A stretch of 64,000 bases of DNA from Alphaproteobacteria bacterium (GTDB taxonomy: Bacteria > Pseudomonadota > Alphaproteobacteria > Rs-D84). Made by a program: the position numbers and the translations under genes. The stretch is taken from positions 182,255 through 246,254 of the forward strand of contig JAGCVZ010000011.1 of the NCBI GenBank assembly GCA_017962125.1, read 5' to 3'. Below, piece after piece: positions 7,521-33,010 of this stretch (position 1 is its first letter; each line of letters begins with the position of its first letter). The notes under the pieces are model-generated. The model was not told the DNA's origin, did no database searches, and worked only from the letters and a program-made list of their open reading frames with translations.

Positions 7521-10283
7521 ATGCTAACACTGATTGATGGGAATTCGATTTTATTTCGTGCTTACTATGGTGTGCACAGTCGTCTTACACGCGCCGATGG
7601 CACCCCAACCGGTGCAGTATTTGCATTTTTTAACATGATGTTACCGGTATTTGCTGCGGCAAAACCTGACGATATTTTCGTATGTGTGTTCGACGCATCA
7701 CGACAAACTTTCCGTCAGAAAATATACCCAGAATACAAAGCAAACCGAACAGAAACCCCCGCCGATTTGATTTCCCAGGCATTATTGGTTCAACGCGGGC
7801 TCGGTGAAATGGGCGTACCAGTTCTTTGCGTACCTGGTGTAGAGGCCGATGATGTCATCGCAACCATTGCAACAAAAAACTGTCAAATTGCGGAAAAAAC
7901 ACGAATCATGACTGGCGATAAAGATTTAATGCAGTTAGTTTCTGATTGTGTTTTTCTTTATGATGGAATGAAACAACGGCGCATTGAACGTGCCGAAGTC
8001 ATTGAAAAATTTGGTGTTCCGCCTGAACGCGTTATTGATGTTCAATCACTCATGGGCGATTCGTCTGATAACGTTCCAGGTGTTCATGGAATTGGCCCTA
8101 AAAAAGCCGCAGAACTTATCAATGAATTTGGTTCACTTGATGAACTTTACTCGCATTTAAGCGACATAAAAAATGAGCGCACTCGGAAATTACTTTCCGA
8201 ATCGCGTGATTCCGCATATATATCGCGCGAACTTGTAACATTAAAACGTGATGTCGATTTATCAGGATTAAAATTGGGGCCACTACATTTCAATCGGGCA
8301 GCCGCATTAGAATTTGTTCAAAAAGAAATAGAAAGCAATTCGCTGTATGAAAAAATTTCAAAGTTGTTTACGGAAACCGCGACCACACCAACAAAATTTG
8401 AATTTCCAAATTCTGTATGTCCCACAGATACGCCTGCGCCAGAAGACAAGCCAAAACCAGAATCAAAAATGACATTTGCAAAAATAACCACTTTAACGGA
8501 ATTGGAAAAATTCTTGTCTGGGGTTCGTGATGTTATCGCACTGGATACCGAAACCACAGGACTTGACCAAACGACTGCAAAAATGGTTGGAATGTCACTT
8601 GCGATTGACCCCATGCACGGCGTTTATATTCCATTGCGCCACCGCACGACAGCGGGCGATTTGTTTGGTGGTGATGCTGTCGCACCAGGGCAAATTTCAA
8701 TCAAGGATTTGTATAAAAAAATCTGGCCAATTTTAACGGACAAAAAAGTTACTAAGGTTGGTCATAACATAAAGTTCGACCTGCACATTATGGCAAATGA
8801 AGGTTGGGATATTACAAAAATCACACCGATTGACGACACAATGTTGCTGTCATATGCATTACACGGAACATTGCACTCTCACAGCATGGACGAATTGGCA
8901 CTAAGATATTTAAATCACCAAGATATAACTTTCGCATCGTTATTTCCGCCAAAGACACGCGATGCAGATATGCGTTTTGATGAATTACCAATCGACACCG
9001 CTTATCCATACGCTGCCGAAGATGCCGCCATCACGATGGCACTGTATAAACTTATGCGACCGCAACTTGATGCGAACGAAAAACTTCATGAATTGTATGA
9101 AAAATGTGACCGACCACTATTGATAGTTCTGACACAGATGGAACAATGGGGCGTATTGGTGAACAAAAGCAAATTGTTACAACTGTCCGGCGTATTTCAT
9201 GAACAACTTACAAACATAAGTGGTGAAATCTTCGAACTTGCAGGGCATGAATTTAATATCGCAAGTCCGAAACAACTTGCGACCATCCTGTTCGACGAAT
9301 TGCATTTGCCGGGAAACAAAAAACGTTCCACTGATGCGGATTCACTAAACGATTTAATCGAACACCACGAAATCATCGAAAAGATTTTGAATTGGCGTTC
9401 GATTGCGAAACTTGCAGGGACATATGCGGATGCCCTGCCCCGCCAAATTGGTGATGACGGACGTATTCACACAACATATTTGCAAACGAGTACGAATACA
9501 GGCCGTCTGTCCAGTCGCGATCCAAACCTGCAAAACATTCCGGTAAAAACCGAACTTGGAGAAGAAATCCGTAAGTGTTTCGTTGCCGGACCGGGCAAAA
9601 AACTTATTGCGGTCGATTATTCACAAATTCAATTACGCTTGCTTGCGGACGTTGCGAACATAAAAACGTTCAAGGATACATTTATCGCGGGCGCGGACAT
9701 TCACGAACAAACCGCGCGGAAAATCTTTAACATTCCACAAACGACCATAGTTCCGCGTGACCTGCGGCGCGCAGCAAAGACGGTGAACTTTTCTATTATA
9801 TATGGAATTTCATCAATCGGTCTTGCGGCCCAGTTAAATGTTTCGCGCGCGCAGGCGGCGGACATAATAAATTCGTACATGTCGGGGTTACCGGAAATAA
9901 AAAAATATATCGATGATACCAAAGAATTCGCGCGCAAAAACGCATGTGTTTACACACCATGGGGGCGCCGCATCGAATTACCAGAGGTAAAAAATTCCCG
10001 CATGCGTGCATATGCTATGCGTGCTGCAATCAACGCCCCGATTCAGGGGTATGAGGCCGATTTAATGCGTCGCGCGATGGTGGACATTTATAACAAAATC
10101 GTTGTTCCGAACGTCGACAAAATAAAACTTATCATGCAGGTTCACGATGAAATGGTCTTTGAATGTGATGAAGGATCTGCGGAAAGTTTCGCCGAACAAA
10201 TCAAAAACATTATGGAAAACGTAACAAAGATATCTGTACCGCTGCGTGCCGATTATGTCATCGCACCATTTTGGGGAAAGTAA
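7521..10283 (+). CDS. polA: DNA polymerase I
   Basis: 920 aa. Domains recognised: 5'-3' exonuclease N-terminus, 3'-5' exonuclease, and the polymerase motifs DYSQIQLRLLA and QVHDEMVFE. Confidence 0.9.
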   Translation: MLTLIDGNSILFRAYYGVHSRLTRADGTPTGAVFAFFNMMLPVFAAAKPDDIFVCVFDASRQTFRQKIYPEYKANRTETPADLISQALLVQRGLGEMGVPVLCVPGVEADDVIATIATKNCQIAEKTRIMTGDKDLMQLVSDCVFLYDGMKQRRIERAEVIEKFGVPPERVIDVQSLMGDSSDNVPGVHGIGPKKAAELINEFGSLDELYSHLSDIKNERTRKLLSESRDSAYISRELVTLKRDVDLSGLKLGPLHFNRAAALEFVQKEIESNSLYEKISKLFTETATTPTKFEFPNSVCPTDTPAPEDKPKPESKMTFAKITTLTELEKFLSGVRDVIALDTETTGLDQTTAKMVGMSLAIDPMHGVYIPLRHRTTAGDLFGGDAVAPGQISIKDLYKKIWPILTDKKVTKVGHNIKFDLHIMANEGWDITKITPIDDTMLLSYALHGTLHSHSMDELALRYLNHQDITFASLFPPKTRDADMRFDELPIDTAYPYAAEDAAITMALYKLMRPQLDANEKLHELYEKCDRPLLIVLTQMEQWGVLVNKSKLLQLSGVFHEQLTNISGEIFELAGHEFNIASPKQLATILFDELHLPGNKKRSTDADSLNDLIEHHEIIEKILNWRSIAKLAGTYADALPRQIGDDGRIHTTYLQTSTNTGRLSSRDPNLQNIPVKTELGEEIRKCFVAGPGKKLIAVDYSQIQLRLLADVANIKTFKDTFIAGADIHEQTARKIFNIPQTTIVPRDLRRAAKTVNFSIIYGISSIGLAAQLNVSRAQAADIINSYMSGLPEIKKYIDDTKEFARKNACVYTPWGRRIELPEVKNSRMRAYAMRAAINAPIQGYEADLMRRAMVDIYNKIVVPNVDKIKLIMQVHDEMVFECDEGSAESFAEQIKNIMENVTKISVPLRADYVIAPFWGK

Positions 10284-10601
10284 TCAAGATACCGTACTTT
10301 CCTTTATCCAATTCAAATAATCCGAACTGCCCGCGACAATCGGCATTGCTATTATTTGGGGCACATCATATTCGGAACATTCTTTGATTGCGGATTCCAC
10401 TTTTTCTATCAGACAGGCACGCGTTTTTATGCTCAACAACTGTTCTTGCTTATTGTGAATTTTGCCCTGCCACCAGTAATGCGAATCAATGCTGGACACC
10501 TGAACGTCCGCAGACAATTTATTTTCCAACAACACCTTTATCAATTTTGCCGTCCACGCTTCATTATCAGTGGTCGTTTGAATCAAAACATACTTGTCCA
10601 T
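10284..10601 (-). CDS. cutA: divalent-cation tolerance protein CutA
   Basis: 105 aa. CutA1 family pattern (..HYWWQGKI.., ..EYDVPQIIAMPI..GSSDYLNWI). GGAG lies upstream of the ATG. Confidence 0.7.
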   Translation of the reverse strand: MDKYVLIQTTTDNEAWTAKLIKVLLENKLSADVQVSSIDSHYWWQGKIHNKQEQLLSIKTRACLIEKVESAIKECSEYDVPQIIAMPIVAGSSDYLNWIKESTVS

Positions 10602-10619
10602 AATTTTCTCCTCGTTGGC

Positions 10620-10661
10620 AAAATCACATCTGAATAAAGCCTTTTGGATTTTGTTCCAAAC
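10620..10661. repeat. 42-bp perfect direct repeat, copy 1 (equals the last 11 codons plus stop of the M23 peptidase gene)
   Basis: AAAATCACATCTGAATAAAGCCTTTTGGATTTTGTTCCAAAC, identical to 11150..11191. Confidence 0.85.
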
Positions 10662-10664
10662 CTA

Positions 10665-11126
10665 CTATACTCTCACTTTTGATGACATTAATAACTGCCT
10701 ATTCATCGCTATTGCATCAGATATTAATTTATAGGTTACTGTCTTGCTTCTTTCATGCTTGCTATATAAATAAGGTGCCCTCATCCTTTTCTTTTTAACA
10801 TAGAAATATGTCACTGCTGGATTTTTTTCTTGTTTGGAATGTAAATACGCAATCTCATTAAAAATCTCTGAAAACACAGAATCTTCCACCAATTTGTGTC
10901 CAAAATTTGCAACAAAAAATTCACATTCTTTGTCGACTTTATTCCAACCAACATGAAGAATTATTTTTTTCGTGTTTGAATCAGTAATCGTGTAATACTT
11001 CCATCTTGCTTTGAACGGTCTAAGTTGTACATCCGGATTAAATATATTAAATTGAATTCCTTCTTCTGTTTTTTCAAAAAATTTGATTTCGTAATTTATA
11101 CCATTCAACAATTCTTCTAACGTCAT
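10665..11126 (-). CDS. hypothetical protein (153 aa, cytoplasmic), carried on the repeat-flanked insertion
   Basis: ATG at 11124-11126 with an AGGTG RBS. No signal peptide and no recognisable family. Confidence 0.5.
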   Translation of the reverse strand: MTLEELLNGINYEIKFFEKTEEGIQFNIFNPDVQLRPFKARWKYYTITDSNTKKIILHVGWNKVDKECEFFVANFGHKLVEDSVFSEIFNEIAYLHSKQEKNPAVTYFYVKKKRMRAPYLYSKHERSKTVTYKLISDAIAMNRQLLMSSKVRV

Positions 11127-11149
11127 TTCCGCACCTTTTTATTTTTAAT

Positions 11150-11191
11150 AAAATCACATCTGAATAAAGCCTTTTGGATTTTGTTCCAAAC
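11150..11191. repeat. 42-bp perfect direct repeat, copy 2 (functional 3' end of the M23 peptidase gene)
   Basis: Identical to 10620..10661. Encodes ..LEQNPKGFIQM-stop on the minus strand. Confidence 0.85.
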
Positions 11192-12449
11192 TTTCTATGG
11201 CCCTATCCAAAGTCACACGATATTCCAAGAACTTCTTTTTATTCGCGGCATCTAAATTATCTATCGCCGGCAATTTTACCGTCATTGGATTTACATGCTT
11301 GCCGTCCTTGATAATTTCATAGTGCAAATGCGGTCCTGTTGAAAGTCCGGTTGACCCCGAATATCCAATAATCTGTCCCTGCTTTACTGCGGTACCAACT
11401 TTTACATTTTTCGCAAATTTTGACATGTGCGCATACAGCGTTTCAAAAGAACTATTATGACGAATCCTTACAAAGTTCCCATGCCCACGATTATAGCCAC
11501 GTGCAACGACACGCCCCGCCCCAGCAGATGGGATCGGGGTTCCGGTCGGTGCGCGGAAATCGACCCCCTTGTGCGCACGCGTGAACCCCAAGACGGGATG
11601 CTTGCGCCGCGTTGAAAAACTACTTGTTACTTTCGCGTTATTTATCGGTGTACGCTTCAACGATTTAATTGCGCCATTTCCATTTGGGTCATAATACCCG
11701 ACCGATTTATCAGATTTTTTAAATCGGTACATTTTTACATTTCCGCGTAACGCATCAAAGGAAACAACCGATACTGCACCATTATCGACCTTTACATTAT
11801 CATGATAGTTTTCTTCATACAGCACAGAAAATTTCTGTCCGGCACGCACATCGCGTTCAAAGTCCATTTCAAAAGCAAGCAAATCATAAACATCCGCCAA
11901 AATACCAGCCGGAATTCCGGCACGCATACCCGCAAGATAAAAGCTATCGCCATCCAAAATTTCCCCTTGTCGATAAACCAAGCGCGTATCGCGTTCAATA
12001 TCAATCGCGTTACAATTCCACACACCTGCATCATCACAAGTCAATTCCACACGCCGCCATGATCCTGGCAGCACAACAATCTTTGTTATTGGTGTTTCGG
12101 GGCCACCGTCACGCACAATTTCAATTTTATCCTTGTCCGCACGCAAACCCGTTATACCCGCCTTGGTCTTTAAAACATTTGCAATAGAATTTATATCTTT
12201 GCCACCAATACCATTCTCTGACAAAATCTTTGACAGTGTGTCCCCTGCTGCAACATTTATCACTGTTGTCTTATCGTCAACCACAGATTCTGTTACAAAA
12301 TCGGCATTAACAGATGACGGTCGCCCACGCAATACAGACCATAAAACAACCACAACCGCAAACGCGGCAACCAGTCCTGCAATCCATAAAACCGCGCGGA
12401 CAAACTTCCCAGAAGTAATAATATTTTTTGCTTTTTCCATGGCGTCCAT
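11154..12449 (-). CDS. M23 family metallopeptidase (membrane-anchored, LytM/NlpD-like)
   Basis: HKGVDF..GYSGSTGLSTGPHLHYE M23 catalytic motifs with an N-terminal TM helix. Start taken at the internal ATG 12449; the ORF extends to 12476. Confidence 0.8.
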   Translation of the reverse strand: MDAMEKAKNIITSGKFVRAVLWIAGLVAAFAVVVVLWSVLRGRPSSVNADFVTESVVDDKTTVINVAAGDTLSKILSENGIGGKDINSIANVLKTKAGITGLRADKDKIEIVRDGGPETPITKIVVLPGSWRRVELTCDDAGVWNCNAIDIERDTRLVYRQGEILDGDSFYLAGMRAGIPAGILADVYDLLAFEMDFERDVRAGQKFSVLYEENYHDNVKVDNGAVSVVSFDALRGNVKMYRFKKSDKSVGYYDPNGNGAIKSLKRTPINNAKVTSSFSTRRKHPVLGFTRAHKGVDFRAPTGTPIPSAGAGRVVARGYNRGHGNFVRIRHNSSFETLYAHMSKFAKNVKVGTAVKQGQIIGYSGSTGLSTGPHLHYEIIKDGKHVNPMTVKLPAIDNLDAANKKKFLEYRVTLDRAIESLEQNPKGFIQM

Positions 12450-12461
12450 TATAATAGTTTT

Positions 12462-13229
12462 ATGACAATAAATCAAGCCTTTGAACTTTTGAAAAAATCT
12501 GGTGGCATTCGTGCAGCACGAATTATTACCGACGAAATCAAAAATTTATCGTGGTTTCGCGCACATATAATCGCGCATCGGTTGCGCAGTGGCACACCTG
12601 TTGCAAAGATAATTCACAAAAAATGGTTTTACGGTTTGGAATTTTATACCAATCATCACACATTGGACCCACGACCCGACACCGAAACTTTGGTTGAATC
12701 GGTCATAAACGACAAATGGATTGCACCAAAGATTTTAGATTTAGGCACCGGCACAGGTTGTATAATTGTGGCACTGGTTAAGAACATCGATTCTGCAACC
12801 GGCACAGCGGTTGACATATCACGTGGCGCACTGCGCGTGGCACGCCGAAACATAAAAAAACTGAACCTGCGCGACAGAATAAAAATCAAGCATGGTTCTT
12901 TCGCAAACCAAAAACTACTGCCGCACGAAAAATTTGATATTATCGTATCAAACCCACCATATATTGCATATGGTGACCCGCGTGTGGATGCGGGCGCGAA
13001 ACACGACCCGAAAATCGCACTCTACGCAAAAAAACGCGGCATGGCGGCATACGAACAAATTGCAAAAAATGCAAAAAACTGGATTGCGGAAAGCGGAAAA
13101 TTATATATCGAAATCGGCGCCGGTGGCGAAGTATCAGTTCGCAAGATTTTTGAATCGCATGGTTGGCAATTCGTCCGCGCCACCCGTGATCTTTCCGGCA
13201 TTACCCGCGTGTTGGTGTTTAAATTTTAA
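12462..13229 (+). CDS. prmC: release-factor glutamine N5-methyltransferase (HemK/PrmC)
   Basis: 255 aa. NPPY motif (IVSNPPYI) and SAM-binding LDLGTGTG. Confidence 0.8.
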   Translation: MTINQAFELLKKSGGIRAARIITDEIKNLSWFRAHIIAHRLRSGTPVAKIIHKKWFYGLEFYTNHHTLDPRPDTETLVESVINDKWIAPKILDLGTGTGCIIVALVKNIDSATGTAVDISRGALRVARRNIKKLNLRDRIKIKHGSFANQKLLPHEKFDIIVSNPPYIAYGDPRVDAGAKHDPKIALYAKKRGMAAYEQIAKNAKNWIAESGKLYIEIGAGGEVSVRKIFESHGWQFVRATRDLSGITRVLVFKF

Positions 13230-13259: not shown

Positions 13260-13709
13260 TTACCTTCGTTTACCGTATTGGTCTGGGAAAAAAATTCTGC
13301 CGATATACTTTCTAATAAATGGCGATGGACATTTACCGGACGCAATACATACCGGGCAATCATGCCAACTTGTCGCGACACAATCAGTGTCTTTCGAAAC
13401 ACACGACCGCATTATAATAACCATTTCATCCTTTTCCGCCTTGTTCACACTTGAATCTGGTTTCCATTCAACCGCGGGATGCAAACGATCAGGTTTTACT
13501 TCAAACGCTGTATTATCATCATAATATACAACAAACCCACAATGAAATCTGTTGCCGTCCACAGGTTTACAATTCCGCATAAGTTCAATAAATTGTTTTT
13601 GAAAATTTTCGGTAACCGCCCCAACATTTATTTGCGTAGGGCGACCACTGTAATCCGGTGTATAGCGATTATAAGTAAAGTTTTGGATGATTACAAATTT
13701 TTCTGCCAT
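13260..13709 (-). CDS. hypothetical protein (149 aa, Cys-containing)
   Basis: ATG at 13707-13709 with an AAGGAT RBS. No family recognised. Confidence 0.45.
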   Translation of the reverse strand: MAEKFVIIQNFTYNRYTPDYSGRPTQINVGAVTENFQKQFIELMRNCKPVDGNRFHCGFVVYYDDNTAFEVKPDRLHPAVEWKPDSSVNKAEKDEMVIIMRSCVSKDTDCVATSWHDCPVCIASGKCPSPFIRKYIGRIFFPDQYGKRR

Positions 13710-32672: not shown

Positions 32673-32749
32673 GTGCCCATGGCTCAATTGGATAGAGCAA
32701 TTGCCTTCTAAGCAATAGGTTGCAGGTTCGAGTCCTGCTGGGCACGCCA
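32673..32749 (+). tRNA. tRNA-Arg (anticodon TCT)
   Basis: Acceptor GTGCCCA/TGGGCAC, anticodon stem ATTGC/GCAAT with loop CTTCTAA, T-arm GCAGG-TTCGAGT-CCTGC, encoded CCA. Confidence 0.85.
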
Positions 32750-32755
32750 AAAATT
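32733..32755 (+). repeat. 23-bp direct repeat copy 1 (3' end of tRNA-Arg, TCCTGCTGGGCACGCCAAAAATT)
   Basis: Repeated exactly at 32967..32989. Attachment-site-like duplication. Confidence 0.75.
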
Positions 32756-32966
32756 CAACTCGACCTTTTTGGTCGGTTTTAATTTTTGTTGCGTAACCAA
32801 AGGACGAGAACCCAGGTTCGAAAACAAGTAGATTTTGCAAATGTAATGCAGCAAAATCGTCACGGTTTGCGCGCAGTGTCGGCAAAGCCGACCAAGCGAC
32901 CCGATAGTTGATGAGAACGAGTGTAAACGAAGTTCGAATCTTACGTGTGGTGAGCATAGCGAACAA

Positions 32967-32989
32967 TCCTGCTGGGCACGCCAAAAATT
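32967..32989 (+). repeat. 23-bp direct repeat copy 2 (att-like)
   Basis: Identical to 32733..32755. The ~210 bp between copies contains tRNA T-loop-like fragments (GGTTCGAAAAC, GTTCGAATC). Confidence 0.75.
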
Positions 32990-33010
32990 TAAATCTGTTG
33001 CGATTGCAAC

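What the first reader, a model, noticed from the sequence alone, without database searches (positions are those of the whole stretch)
10620..11191. 153-aa orphan ORF inserted between the M23 peptidase and cutA, flanked by perfect 42-bp direct repeats that duplicate the peptidase 3' end
AAAATCACATCTGAATAAAGCCTTTTGGATTTTGTTCCAAAC occurs at 10620..10661 and at 11150..11191. Copy 2 encodes the last 11 codons plus the TGA stop of the M23 peptidase (..LEQNPKGFIQM*). Copy 1 abuts the cutA RBS and ATG. Without the 530-bp insert, the peptidase stop would sit directly in front of cutA. The insert carries one gene with its own RBS and no homologs that I recognise. This is the footprint of a cassette-like insertion with a long target duplication (or a site-specific recombination product), and it would be excisable by homologous recombination between the repeats.
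Basis: seen in the sequence. Interest (0 to 1): 0.65.

Follow-up and report, generated by a model that had tools for sequence, protein, structure and literature searches.

The report
Orphan gene in recombination hotspot scar
A small gene of unknown function sits in a fast-changing gap between two essential genes of a tiny-genome gut bacterium, and the perfect 42-base repeat around it is best read as a recombination scar, not the footprint of a self-mobile cassette.

Summary
A perfect 42-bp direct repeat (10620-10661, 11150-11191) brackets a low-GC 153-aa orphan gene lying between an M23 peptidase gene and cutA, and one copy is the real 3' end of the peptidase gene.

The genome is a Candidatus Enterousia, a gut or rumen alphaproteobacterium with a reduced genome. 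In most related species the peptidase and polA stop codons are only 2-20 nt apart, so that is the empty site. In others the gap holds cutA, ORF153, both in either order, or an unrelated 201-aa gene.

Near-conspecific pairs differ by presence or absence: L001 against L017, and L014 against L030. ORF153 is much less diverged between species than its flanks (dS 0.15 against 0.84-1.0). It therefore moves horizontally, apparently by homologous recombination in the flanking core genes.

No recombinase, terminal inverted repeats, attC-like hairpin or consistent duplication accompanies it. The native ORF 3' end (TAAGGGCATAG) matches the peptidase gene at one place only, 3 nt from the repeat boundary. 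This points to a microhomology-assisted unequal crossover between an ORF-bearing allele and a cutA-bearing allele.

ORF153 is under purifying selection (dN/dS 0.2-0.55) but matches no known family or fold. The finding is ordinary in kind and modest in interest.

The parts
11154..12476 (-). M23 peptidase gene, a core gene. Its last 38 nt plus 4 nt after the stop form repeat copy 2.
   Evidence: ORF list. Pfam Peptidase_M23 E 7.9e-35 and a weak Csd3_N2 hit. Present in all 80 related species loci.
11195..11205 (-). Microhomology block TAGGGCCATAG inside the peptidase gene, ending 3 nt upstream of the repeat. It matches the native ORF153 3' end TAAGGGCATAG at 9 of 11 positions.
   Evidence: It is the only position in the 1323-nt gene with at least 8/11 matches, and the only one in 10 kb with at least 9/11.
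11150..11191 (-). Repeat copy 2: the functional 3' end of the peptidase gene (..LEQNPKGFIQM, TGA, TTTT).
11127..11149 (-). ORF153 leader with RBS (ATTAAAAATAAAAAGGTGCGGAA). It travels with the gene in all arrangements.
   Evidence: The AATAAAAAGG-type leader is conserved upstream of the ORF in WIN, L001, L010, L005 and L014.
10665..11126 (-). ORF153: a 153-aa orphan protein with an acidic beta-sheet N-terminal part and a very basic helical C-terminal part.
   Evidence: Only 6 homologue clusters among 5.8 billion proteins, plus one remote relative, P0008. No match in Pfam, PHROGs, PADLOC, NCBIfam or PDB sequences. dN/dS is 0.2-0.55. AF2 model pLDDT 70.8 has no credible fold match.
10662..10664 (-). 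A 3-nt spacer (TAG, a second in-frame stop) between the ORF153 stop and repeat copy 1. It is CAG in L001.
10620..10661 (-). Repeat copy 1: a non-coding duplicate of the peptidase 3' end. It sits upstream of cutA exactly where the real peptidase end lies in peptidase-cutA-polA genomes.
   Evidence: Alignment of cutA upstream regions.
10602..10619 (-). cutA leader with RBS (GCCAACGAGGAGAAAATT).
10284..10601 (-). cutA (CutA1 family). It is itself variable cargo of the hotspot, and here it is a divergent allele shared only with L001.
   Evidence: Pfam CutA1 E 1.5e-29. Absent from 23 of 28 species-representative loci that keep peptidase-polA synteny. Allele groups are visible.
7521..10283 (+). polA, a convergent core gene. 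Its stop abuts the cutA stop directly, and it forms the right border of the hotspot.

Best explanation
ORF153 is a non-autonomous accessory orphan gene. It lives in a hypervariable insertion hotspot: the few-nucleotide gap between the convergent stop codons of two core genes, the M23 peptidase gene and polA, in a clade of Candidatus Enterousia.

Cargo in this gap is cutA, ORF153, or a 201-aa gene. It is gained, lost and passed between species by homologous recombination in the conserved flanks.

The window's arrangement is peptidase, ORF153, a copy of the peptidase end, cutA, polA. I infer that it arose once, by an unequal illegitimate crossover. One parent was an allele carrying ORF153 next to the peptidase (peptidase-ORF-polA, as in L014). 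The other was an allele carrying cutA (peptidase-cutA-polA, as in L017, L015 and L020).

The new joint formed just downstream of a microhomology between the ORF 3' end (TAAGGGCATAG) and a site in the peptidase gene (TAGGGCCATAG), where the copied tract begins 42 nt before the repeat's downstream end. The other end was resolved by ordinary homology. This is homology-facilitated illegitimate recombination.

Because the cutA-side parent contributed its own upstream sequence, the last 42 nt of the peptidase region were duplicated. The repeat is therefore a by-product, not a recombination site. The three genes are probably co-transcribed from the peptidase promoter.

Shown: the hotspot, the polymorphism, the horizontal transfer and the microhomology. 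Inferred: the order of events, the nature of the parents and co-transcription. The biochemical role of ORF153 remains unknown. My guess is a strain-specific nucleic-acid- or protein-binding factor.
For: 1. Empty site. The peptidase and polA stops are 2-20 nt apart in L016, L018, L019, L023, L024 and L025-L042. cutA alone is present in L015, L017 and L020. A different 201-aa gene on the opposite strand is present in L021 and L022.

2. ORF153 occurs in three arrangements:
- peptidase-cutA-ORF-polA in L010, L013 and L005
- peptidase-ORF-cutA-polA in the window and L001
- peptidase-ORF-polA in L014

3. Sister lineages differ in cargo on the peptidase and polA trees.
- L001 and L017 are 99.3% (peptidase) and 98.4% (polA) identical but differ by the ORF.
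- L014 and the empty L030 are 96.6% identical in the peptidase gene.

4. Horizontal transfer with co-converted flank.
- dS between the window and L001 is 0.146 for the ORF, against 0.84 for the peptidase gene and 1.0 for polA.
- The 5' ~250 nt of L001's cutA are window-like; its 3' end is identical to L017.

5. The cutA/polA junction in the window is identical in form to that of peptidase-cutA-polA genomes, with TGA abutting TTA. Copy 1 aligns exactly with the true peptidase end of those genomes.

6. Junction microhomology. There is a unique 9/11 match between the native ORF 3' end and the peptidase gene, 3 nt from the repeat. In L005 a 9-nt repeat, TGTAGGTTT, flanks cutA.

7. No mobility machinery or sites were found, and no promoter or terminator excess lies between the genes.

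8. Precedent for recombination of this type leaving shifted genes and duplicated 3' regions: PMC5361080 and PMC3240628.
Against: - The two 42-mers are still perfectly identical in the window. The same arrangement in L001 has 4 differences in the 22 nt it retains, plus a deletion. The ORF has diverged by dS 0.15 between the two lineages.
- Under simple neutral decay I estimate about a 1-2% chance of zero changes in 84 nt. This is my rough calculation, assuming equal branch lengths. Gene conversion between the copies, unequal branch lengths, or a more recent re-formation must therefore be invoked.
- The 3 nt between the microhomology and the repeat do not match (2 mismatches), so the exact crossover point is uncertain.
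- A peptidase-ORF-polA parent has been seen only in a different clade (L014), not in the window's own lineage.
- Natural competence, or any other DNA-uptake route, in Enterousia was not examined.
- Every genome used is a metagenome assembly.
Confidence: 0.62

Rival explanations
1. Tandem duplication followed by random loss. An ancestor with peptidase-cutA-ORF-polA duplicated the block [last 42 nt of the peptidase gene + cutA + ORF]. It then lost the first cutA and the second ORF, which swapped the gene order and left the 42-bp repeat.
For: The cutA-then-ORF order exists in relatives (L010, L005, L013). The repeat starts right after the ORF stop, as a tandem-duplication junction would. The microhomology could equally seed a slipped duplication.
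Against: It needs two exact deletions. No cutA remnant remains in the 23 nt between the peptidase stop and the ORF. Zero nt remain between cutA and polA, a junction identical in form to genomes that never had the ORF there. The window and L001 cutA allele is very different from the cutA of genomes with the cutA-ORF order (dS 1.2-1.6).
Confidence: 0.1
2. True target duplication at a staggered break. A linear ORF153 fragment was captured at a double-strand break whose ends carried about 42-nt overhangs, or by fill-in or template switching during repair. This would give two identical copies at birth, without a second allele as parent.
For: The perfect identity of the two copies. The insert boundaries are clean. 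The leader and ORF unit is the same in all contexts.
Against: No other ORF153 insertion shows a long duplication. It does not explain the microhomology at the joint. It does not explain why the cutA next to the ORF is a distinct allele that moves together with the ORF into L001.
Confidence: 0.1
3. Selfish homing-type gene. ORF153 encodes an unrecognised nuclease or another drive function. It targets the empty peptidase/polA junction and is copied in by repair, as in the intron-less homing of free-standing phage endonuclease genes.
For: The gene is always found in the same gap and is sporadic among close relatives. It is younger than its flanks. Flanking cutA sequence is co-converted in L001. 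A degenerate copy exists in L005-L009, which fits an invade-and-decay cycle.
Against: No nuclease family or motif was found. His58, His77 and His124, invariant among the five close homologues, are not kept in the remote homologue P0008. There is no fold match. Unrelated cargo (cutA, the 201-aa gene) shows the same sporadic behaviour at this site, so the hotspot does not need a drive. Zero of 80 species representatives carry it, a poor record for a driver.
Confidence: 0.08
4. Site-specific gene cassette, of integron, IMEX or integrative-element type. The 42-mers would be attL and attR, recombined by an enzyme encoded elsewhere.
For: A direct repeat that restores the 3' end of a gene is the classic look of integrative elements. 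The cargo genes peptidase-ORF-cutA share one orientation.
Against: Other occupied sites lack the repeat. The 201-aa cargo is on the opposite strand. The repeat is ordinary, variable coding sequence among species. Single-strand folding of the spacer is unremarkable (z -1.05). The start GTTTGGA does not fit the integron core GTTRRRY. No integrase lies in the locus. In L001 most of the copy is deleted, yet the gene was still transferred.
Confidence: 0.05

Closest known systems
Homology-facilitated illegitimate recombination products, for example the orphan immunity-gene arrays of Vibrio cholerae T6SS clusters and the orphan 3' ends of Rhs loci (PMC5361080; mechanism reviewed in PMC3240628)
   Same: Incoming DNA is anchored by homology in a conserved neighbour and joined illegitimately at the other end. 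The resident gene is pushed downstream, still preceded by a leftover of the conserved upstream gene's 3' region. No dedicated recombinase is involved, and the products later spread by ordinary homologous recombination.
   Different: Here the locus is a housekeeping gap (M23 peptidase/polA) in a genome under 1 Mb, and the cargo is not toxin-immunity genes. Only one duplication step is seen, and the joint shows a 9/11 microhomology. The uptake route is unknown.
Chromosomal integration hotspots between core genes (the general concept from comparative genomics; my own knowledge, not checked here)
   Same: A fixed interval between two conserved core genes holds different accessory genes in different strains. 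Turnover is driven by recombination in the flanks.
   Different: This hotspot is minute, holding 0-2 genes in under 1 kb. It lies between two convergent stop codons and carries no mobile-element genes.
Integrative elements that duplicate the 3' end of their target gene (tRNA- or gene-end attL/attR) and integron cassettes
   Same: A direct repeat brackets the insert and one copy completes the target gene. The insert is a single promoter-less gene with its own RBS, in the same orientation as its neighbours.
   Different: There is no integrase, no conserved att or attC, no repeat at the other insertion positions, and the repeat sequence is not conserved between species.
Free-standing homing endonuclease genes of phages (intron-less homing)
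   Same: A small low-GC gene lies between conserved genes, is distributed sporadically among close relatives, is transferred with co-conversion of flanking markers, and shows decay in some lineages.
   Different: No nuclease domain or motif is detectable, and unrelated genes behave the same way at this site.
Tandem-duplication and random-loss gene-order change (described for mitochondrial genomes; my own knowledge)
   Same: Two adjacent genes have swapped order, and a short duplicated stretch is left at the old boundary.
   Different: No pseudogene remnants are present, the cutA/polA junction is pristine, and the alleles point to two parents.

Membership tests
Transposable element / insertion sequence with target-site duplication | Encodes a transposase | tested here: not met
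   The only gene in the insert has no hit in Pfam, NCBIfam, PHROGs or PADLOC and none in PDB sequences.
Transposable element / insertion sequence with target-site duplication | Terminal inverted repeats at the insert ends | tested here: not met
   The repeat finder on 9500-12500 gives no inverted repeat pairing the two insert ends.
Transposable element / insertion sequence with target-site duplication | Every insertion makes a duplication of the same length | tested here: not met
   Insertions after cutA (L010, L013, L005) and without cutA (L014) have 0-9 nt of repeat, not 42.
Integron gene cassette | attC site: an imperfect palindrome downstream of the ORF with a GTTRRRY core | tested here: not met
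   The 79-nt ORF-to-cutA spacer folds no better than shuffles (z -1.05). The repeat begins GTTTGGA, which does not fit GTTRRRY.
Integron gene cassette | An adjacent intI integrase and attI | tested here: inconclusive
   Neither lies in the locus; the neighbours are prmC, the peptidase gene, cutA and polA. The rest of the window and genome was not annotated.
Site-specific integrative element (attL/attR duplicating a gene 3' end) | Integrase carried by the element | tested here: not met
   The 488-bp insert holds a single 153-aa orphan gene.
Site-specific integrative element (attL/attR duplicating a gene 3' end) | The same att core flanks the element wherever it is inserted | tested here: not met
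   The repeat is present only in the window-type arrangement. It is degraded in L001 and absent in L010, L013, L005 and L014.
Free-standing homing endonuclease gene | Recognisable nuclease domain (GIY-YIG, HNH, LAGLIDADG, PD-(D/E)XK and similar) | tested here: not met
   No family hit. His58, His77 and His124 of the close homologues are not conserved in P0008. No fold match.
Free-standing homing endonuclease gene | Sporadic presence at one locus, with co-conversion of flanks | tested here: met
   Unrelated cargo at the site behaves in the same way, however.
Free-standing homing endonuclease gene | Cleaves the empty allele | not testable with these tools
   This needs biochemistry.
Homology-facilitated illegitimate recombination product at an integration hotspot | Conserved flanking genes that can serve as a homology anchor | tested here: met
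   The peptidase and polA genes are 82-99% identical in nucleotides between the lineages compared.
Homology-facilitated illegitimate recombination product at an integration hotspot | Presence/absence and content polymorphism among close relatives, with an identifiable empty site | tested here: met
Homology-facilitated illegitimate recombination product at an integration hotspot | Microhomology at the novel joint | tested here: met
   A unique 9/11 match, TAAGGGCATAG against TAGGGCCATAG, lies 3 nt from the joint. A 9-nt repeat flanks cutA in L005.
Homology-facilitated illegitimate recombination product at an integration hotspot | A DNA-uptake route (competence, conjugation or transduction) in the organism | not tested
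   Competence genes were not sought and complete genomes were not available.
CutA1 family (neighbouring gene) | Match to the Pfam CutA1 model above its gathering score | tested here: met
   102.2 bits against a cut-off of 22.4.

The most novel reading that the evidence does not exclude
The perfect identity of the two 42-mers might be actively maintained, by gene conversion or by selection. In that reading the repeat pair acts as a switch: ORF153 is reversibly lost and regained by recombination within populations. Alternatively, ORF153 itself may be an unrecognised drive or DNA-targeting protein that promotes its own capture into the peptidase/polA gap. Either would make this a minimal, recombinase-less mobile gene in a reduced genome. 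The very basic helical C-terminal tail and the weak XRCC4/PAXX-like and SAUGI-like structural echoes are compatible with DNA-related activity, but they are not evidence for it.
Probability: 0.07. Interest if true: 0.6.

Novelty: new member of a known kind. Interest (0 to 1): 0.3.

Why it matters
- It is a clean natural example, with the empty site, both single-cargo alleles and both recombinant orders all preserved. It shows how accessory genes are shuffled in a bacterium with a genome under 1 Mb and no visible mobile-element machinery.
- It shows that a long perfect direct repeat duplicating a gene end need not mean a transposon or an integrase.
- It flags a tiny, genus-restricted protein family under purifying selection with no recognisable fold, which may be worth a structural or functional look.
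- It does not open a long-standing question.

Tried and rejected
- **Family searches of ORF153.** Pfam, PHROGs, PADLOC, NCBIfam and PDB sequences gave nothing. The only line was a PHROG match at E 0.088, which I treat as noise.
- **Exhaustive HMMER search of 1.84 billion representatives.** It found only the known relatives plus P0008. A follow-up search with P0008 found only itself.
- **Structure prediction.** The first AF2 model, from 5 sequences, had pLDDT 45.7 and was unusable. The second, with P0008 added, reached pLDDT 70.8.
- **Searches of other collections.** tblastn in phage and plasmid collections, a scan of IMG/VR, and two scans of JGI metagenome contigs (a protein pattern and a 23-base DNA pattern) found nothing.
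- **Rfam on 10000-12000.** Nothing.
- **Promoter and terminator scan.** No excess over shuffles and nothing between the three genes.
- **Excised variant in the window species.** I looked it up through the exact cutA protein. All contigs carry the ORF.
- **Resemblance between the ORF leader and the peptidase end.** In cutA-ORF genomes the leader (AGGTTTGTGCAAAATAAAAAGG) resembles the peptidase end. About 67% identity with gaps in AT-rich sequence is not convincing enough to use, because part of it is just the RBS.
- **HNH-like reading of His58/Asn62/His77.** Dropped, because these residues are not conserved in P0008.

Full report
**1. The observation**

The 42-mer occurs exactly twice in the window, at 10620-10661 and 11150-11191. 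There are no mismatches, and none of 100 dinucleotide-preserving shuffles gave a match. It is the only long perfect direct repeat in the 64 kb. The similarity continues for 7 more bases with 2 mismatches.

All three genes lie on the minus strand:
- M23 peptidase, 11154-12476
- a 153-aa ORF, 10665-11126
- cutA, 10284-10601

polA (7521-10283, plus strand) converges on them, and its stop abuts the cutA stop. Pfam confirms M23 and CutA1 and gives nothing for the ORF.

Copy 2 is the real end of the peptidase gene (LEQNPKGFIQM, TGA, TTTT). Copy 1 lies 18 nt upstream of the cutA start codon. The insert is about 28-33% GC against about 43% around it, the lowest in the window.

The arrangement is not an assembly artefact. 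Six contigs carry the identical cutA protein. The four retrieved loci (L012, L097-L099), from three ENA samples, are 99.8-100% identical to the window and show the perfect 42-mer wherever the contig covers it.

**2. The organism and the locus in relatives**

I used the peptidase as a probe and recovered 80 species-representative loci. Many are labelled Candidatus Enterousia and the rest are uncultured gut and rumen Alphaproteobacteria MAGs. Published Enterousia MAGs are mostly below 1 Mbp (PMC12306168).

In the clade that keeps peptidase-polA synteny, 28 species representatives divide as follows:

| Content of the peptidase/polA gap | Species representatives |
|---|---|
| Nothing: the two convergent stops are 2-20 nt apart (e.g. 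L023 cagatgTGATTTTActttcccc) | 23 |
| cutA only | 3 (L015, L017, L020) |
| An unrelated 201-aa orphan gene on the opposite strand | 2 (L021, L022) |
| ORF153 | 0 |

The ancestral state is therefore an empty junction.

**3. Where ORF153 occurs**

Among 5.8 billion proteins there are only six homologue clusters. All are encoded in this same gap, but in three arrangements:

| Arrangement | Loci |
|---|---|
| peptidase-ORF-[copy of peptidase end]-cutA-polA | window, L012, L097-L099, L001-L004 |
| peptidase-cutA-ORF-polA | L010/L011, L013, and L005-L009, where the ORF is split by a frameshift |
| peptidase-ORF-polA, no cutA | L014 |

An exhaustive profile search of 1.84 billion representatives added one remote relative, P0008 (33% identity). 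It lies next to a convergent cysS on a 1.9-kb contig. There is no paralogue in the window or in any other fetched locus. Nothing was found in phage, plasmid, IMG/VR or JGI metagenome collections.

**4. Evidence for horizontal movement by flanking homology**

- L001 (ORF present) and L017 (cutA only, single peptidase end) are 99.3% identical in the peptidase gene and 98.4% in polA, with 97-100% in most 150-nt windows across both genes. They are therefore the same species.
- Within L001, the ORF and the first ~250 nt of cutA resemble the window (84-99%), but are only about 75% identical to L017 where the two can be compared. The last ~90 nt of cutA switch to identity with L017. The segment was imported, with a crossover inside cutA.
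- Synonymous divergence between the window and L001 is 0.146 for the ORF, against 0.84 for the peptidase gene and 1.0 for polA.
- L014 (ORF, no cutA) is 96.6% identical in the peptidase gene to the empty L030. Its ORF is closest (86%) to that of L010, which belongs to another clade.
- On neighbour-joining trees of the peptidase gene and polA, sister lineages repeatedly differ in cargo.
- ORF153 has dN/dS of 0.2-0.55. It is a real gene under purifying selection, though a looser one than its neighbours at about 0.05.

**5. What the 42-bp repeat is**

Aligning the region upstream of cutA across all cutA-bearing loci shows that copy 1 sits exactly where the true peptidase end sits in peptidase-cutA-polA genomes. 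The cutA/polA junction (TGA abutting TTA) is unchanged. So [copy 1 + cutA + polA] is an intact right-hand part of a cutA-type allele.

[Peptidase + copy 2 + leader + ORF] looks like the left-hand part of an ORF-type allele such as L014. The ~20-nt leader with its RBS accompanies the ORF in every context.

The native 3' end of the ORF, taken from genomes where it abuts polA, is TAAGGGCATAG. This matches the window's peptidase gene at only one place in 1323 nt with at least 8/11 identity. That place is TAGGGCCATAG at window 11195-11205, and it ends 3 nt before the 42-mer. A chance match of that quality at that spot has a probability of roughly 1e-3 by my estimate.

Other junctions also show short repeats. 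In L005 a 9-nt TGTAGGTTT flanks cutA, and in L010 the joint is at TGATT.

The simplest reading is an unequal crossover between an ORF allele and a cutA allele. One side resolved by homology in a core gene and the other joined at a microhomology. This is homology-facilitated illegitimate recombination, a process documented experimentally and invoked for similar shifted-gene arrays (PMC3240628, PMC5361080). In this order of parents, the duplication of the peptidase end is unavoidable. The reciprocal order (cutA allele on the left, ORF allele on the right) gives the cutA-ORF arrangement with no long repeat, as observed.

**6. What it is not**

- The insert has no transposase, integrase or nuclease signature.
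- It has no terminal inverted repeats.
- The spacer has no attC-like fold (z -1.05).
- The other insertion positions lack any long duplication.
- The repeat sequence is ordinary, fast-evolving coding sequence that differs between species.
- In L001 the cutA-proximal copy is reduced to about 22 nt. It matches its own peptidase end at 16/22 and the window's at 18/22, and about 28 nt are deleted.

Tandem duplication with random loss would need two exact deletions that leave no remnants. It also conflicts with the distinct cutA allele.

**7. What remains unexplained**

The two copies in the window are still 42/42 identical. Yet the arrangement predates the split of the window and L001 ORFs (dS 0.15), the 3 nt just outside the repeat already differ at 2 positions, and L001's remnant has 4 changes in 22 nt.

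With equal branch lengths I estimate only a 1-2% chance of no change in both copies. This is my inference, not a tool result. Gene conversion between the copies is the most economical patch. Unequal rates or some selection on the sequence cannot be excluded.

No deletion variant was seen in the window species, but assemblies hide minor variants.

**8. ORF153 itself**

With P0008 added to the alignment, AlphaFold gave a usable model (pLDDT 70.8, pTM 0.66). It shows a short helix, a five-stranded antiparallel sheet and three helices, the last one long. The first 100 residues are acidic (pI 5.4) and the C-terminal part is very basic (pI 10.5).

| Fold search | Best result |
|---|---|
| Foldseek against the PDB | E 0.12 (SAUGI) |
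| BFVD viral structures | TM-score 0.36 or less |

None is credible. His58, His77 and His124, invariant among the five close homologues, are not retained in P0008.

No promoter or terminator signal separates the three genes, so co-transcription with the peptidase gene and cutA is likely but inferred. The function is unknown. I would guess a strain-specific binding protein.

**9. Verdict**

The insertion idea is right, but the cassette, target-duplication and site-specific recombination mechanism is not supported.

The feature is a new, well-documented instance of a known kind of event: an accessory-gene hotspot between core genes, shuffled by homologous plus illegitimate recombination. It carries a genuinely orphan protein family. 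Interest is modest, at 0.3.

Noticed in passing
window 13260-13709 (minus strand); compare L001:1548-2857 and L005:104-2316: A second hypervariable patch of orphan genes lies about 0.8 kb away, between a Lactamase_B-family gene and prmC. The window has a 149-aa ORF, L001 has 160- and 172-aa ORFs, and L005 has two paralogous ~320-aa ORFs. None has a Pfam hit. The window ORF's best relative (85% aa) is in L042, whose peptidase is only 76% identical, which again suggests horizontal exchange.
   Followed up: partly
L021:3952-4625 and L022:5343-5948 (minus strand): In two species the same peptidase/polA gap holds a different cargo: a 201-aa orphan gene on the opposite strand, with no Pfam hit, 95% identical between the two.
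   Followed up: partly
L005:4469-5270 (also L006-L009): Here the ORF153 homologue is a pseudogene, split into 54-aa and 89-aa pieces by a frameshift. cutA has lost its normal stop and runs on to 114 aa, ending in an ATGA overlap with the start codon of the ORF's 54-aa N-terminal piece. A 9-nt direct repeat, TGTAGGTTT, flanks cutA.
   Followed up: partly
L095:1-457 and L096: The only remote homologue, P0008 (142 aa, 33% identity), lies 17 nt from a convergent cysS gene on a short contig, so it too sits at a convergent gene end. The 28 nt upstream (AGAGTCTGTTTAA...) faintly resemble a cutA 3' end (..ACAGAGTCTTGA in L010), hinting at a cutA-ORF pairing elsewhere. The contig is too short to test this.
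   Followed up: partly
window 10599-10667: ORF153 and cutA are in the same reading frame, separated only by TAG TAG and 20 sense codons that run through copy 1. This is probably coincidence, with a 1 in 3 chance.
   Followed up: no
window 32733-32761 and 32967-32995: A 29-nt direct repeat, 93% identical and 234 nt apart (TCCTGCTGGGCACGCCAAAAATTCAACTC). It was not examined.
   Followed up: no
L043-L094: In the more distant Enterousia-like clade (peptidase 65-70% identical) polA is not downstream of the peptidase gene. In L049 other convergent genes follow it. The hotspot is therefore specific to the clade with peptidase-polA synteny.
   Followed up: partly
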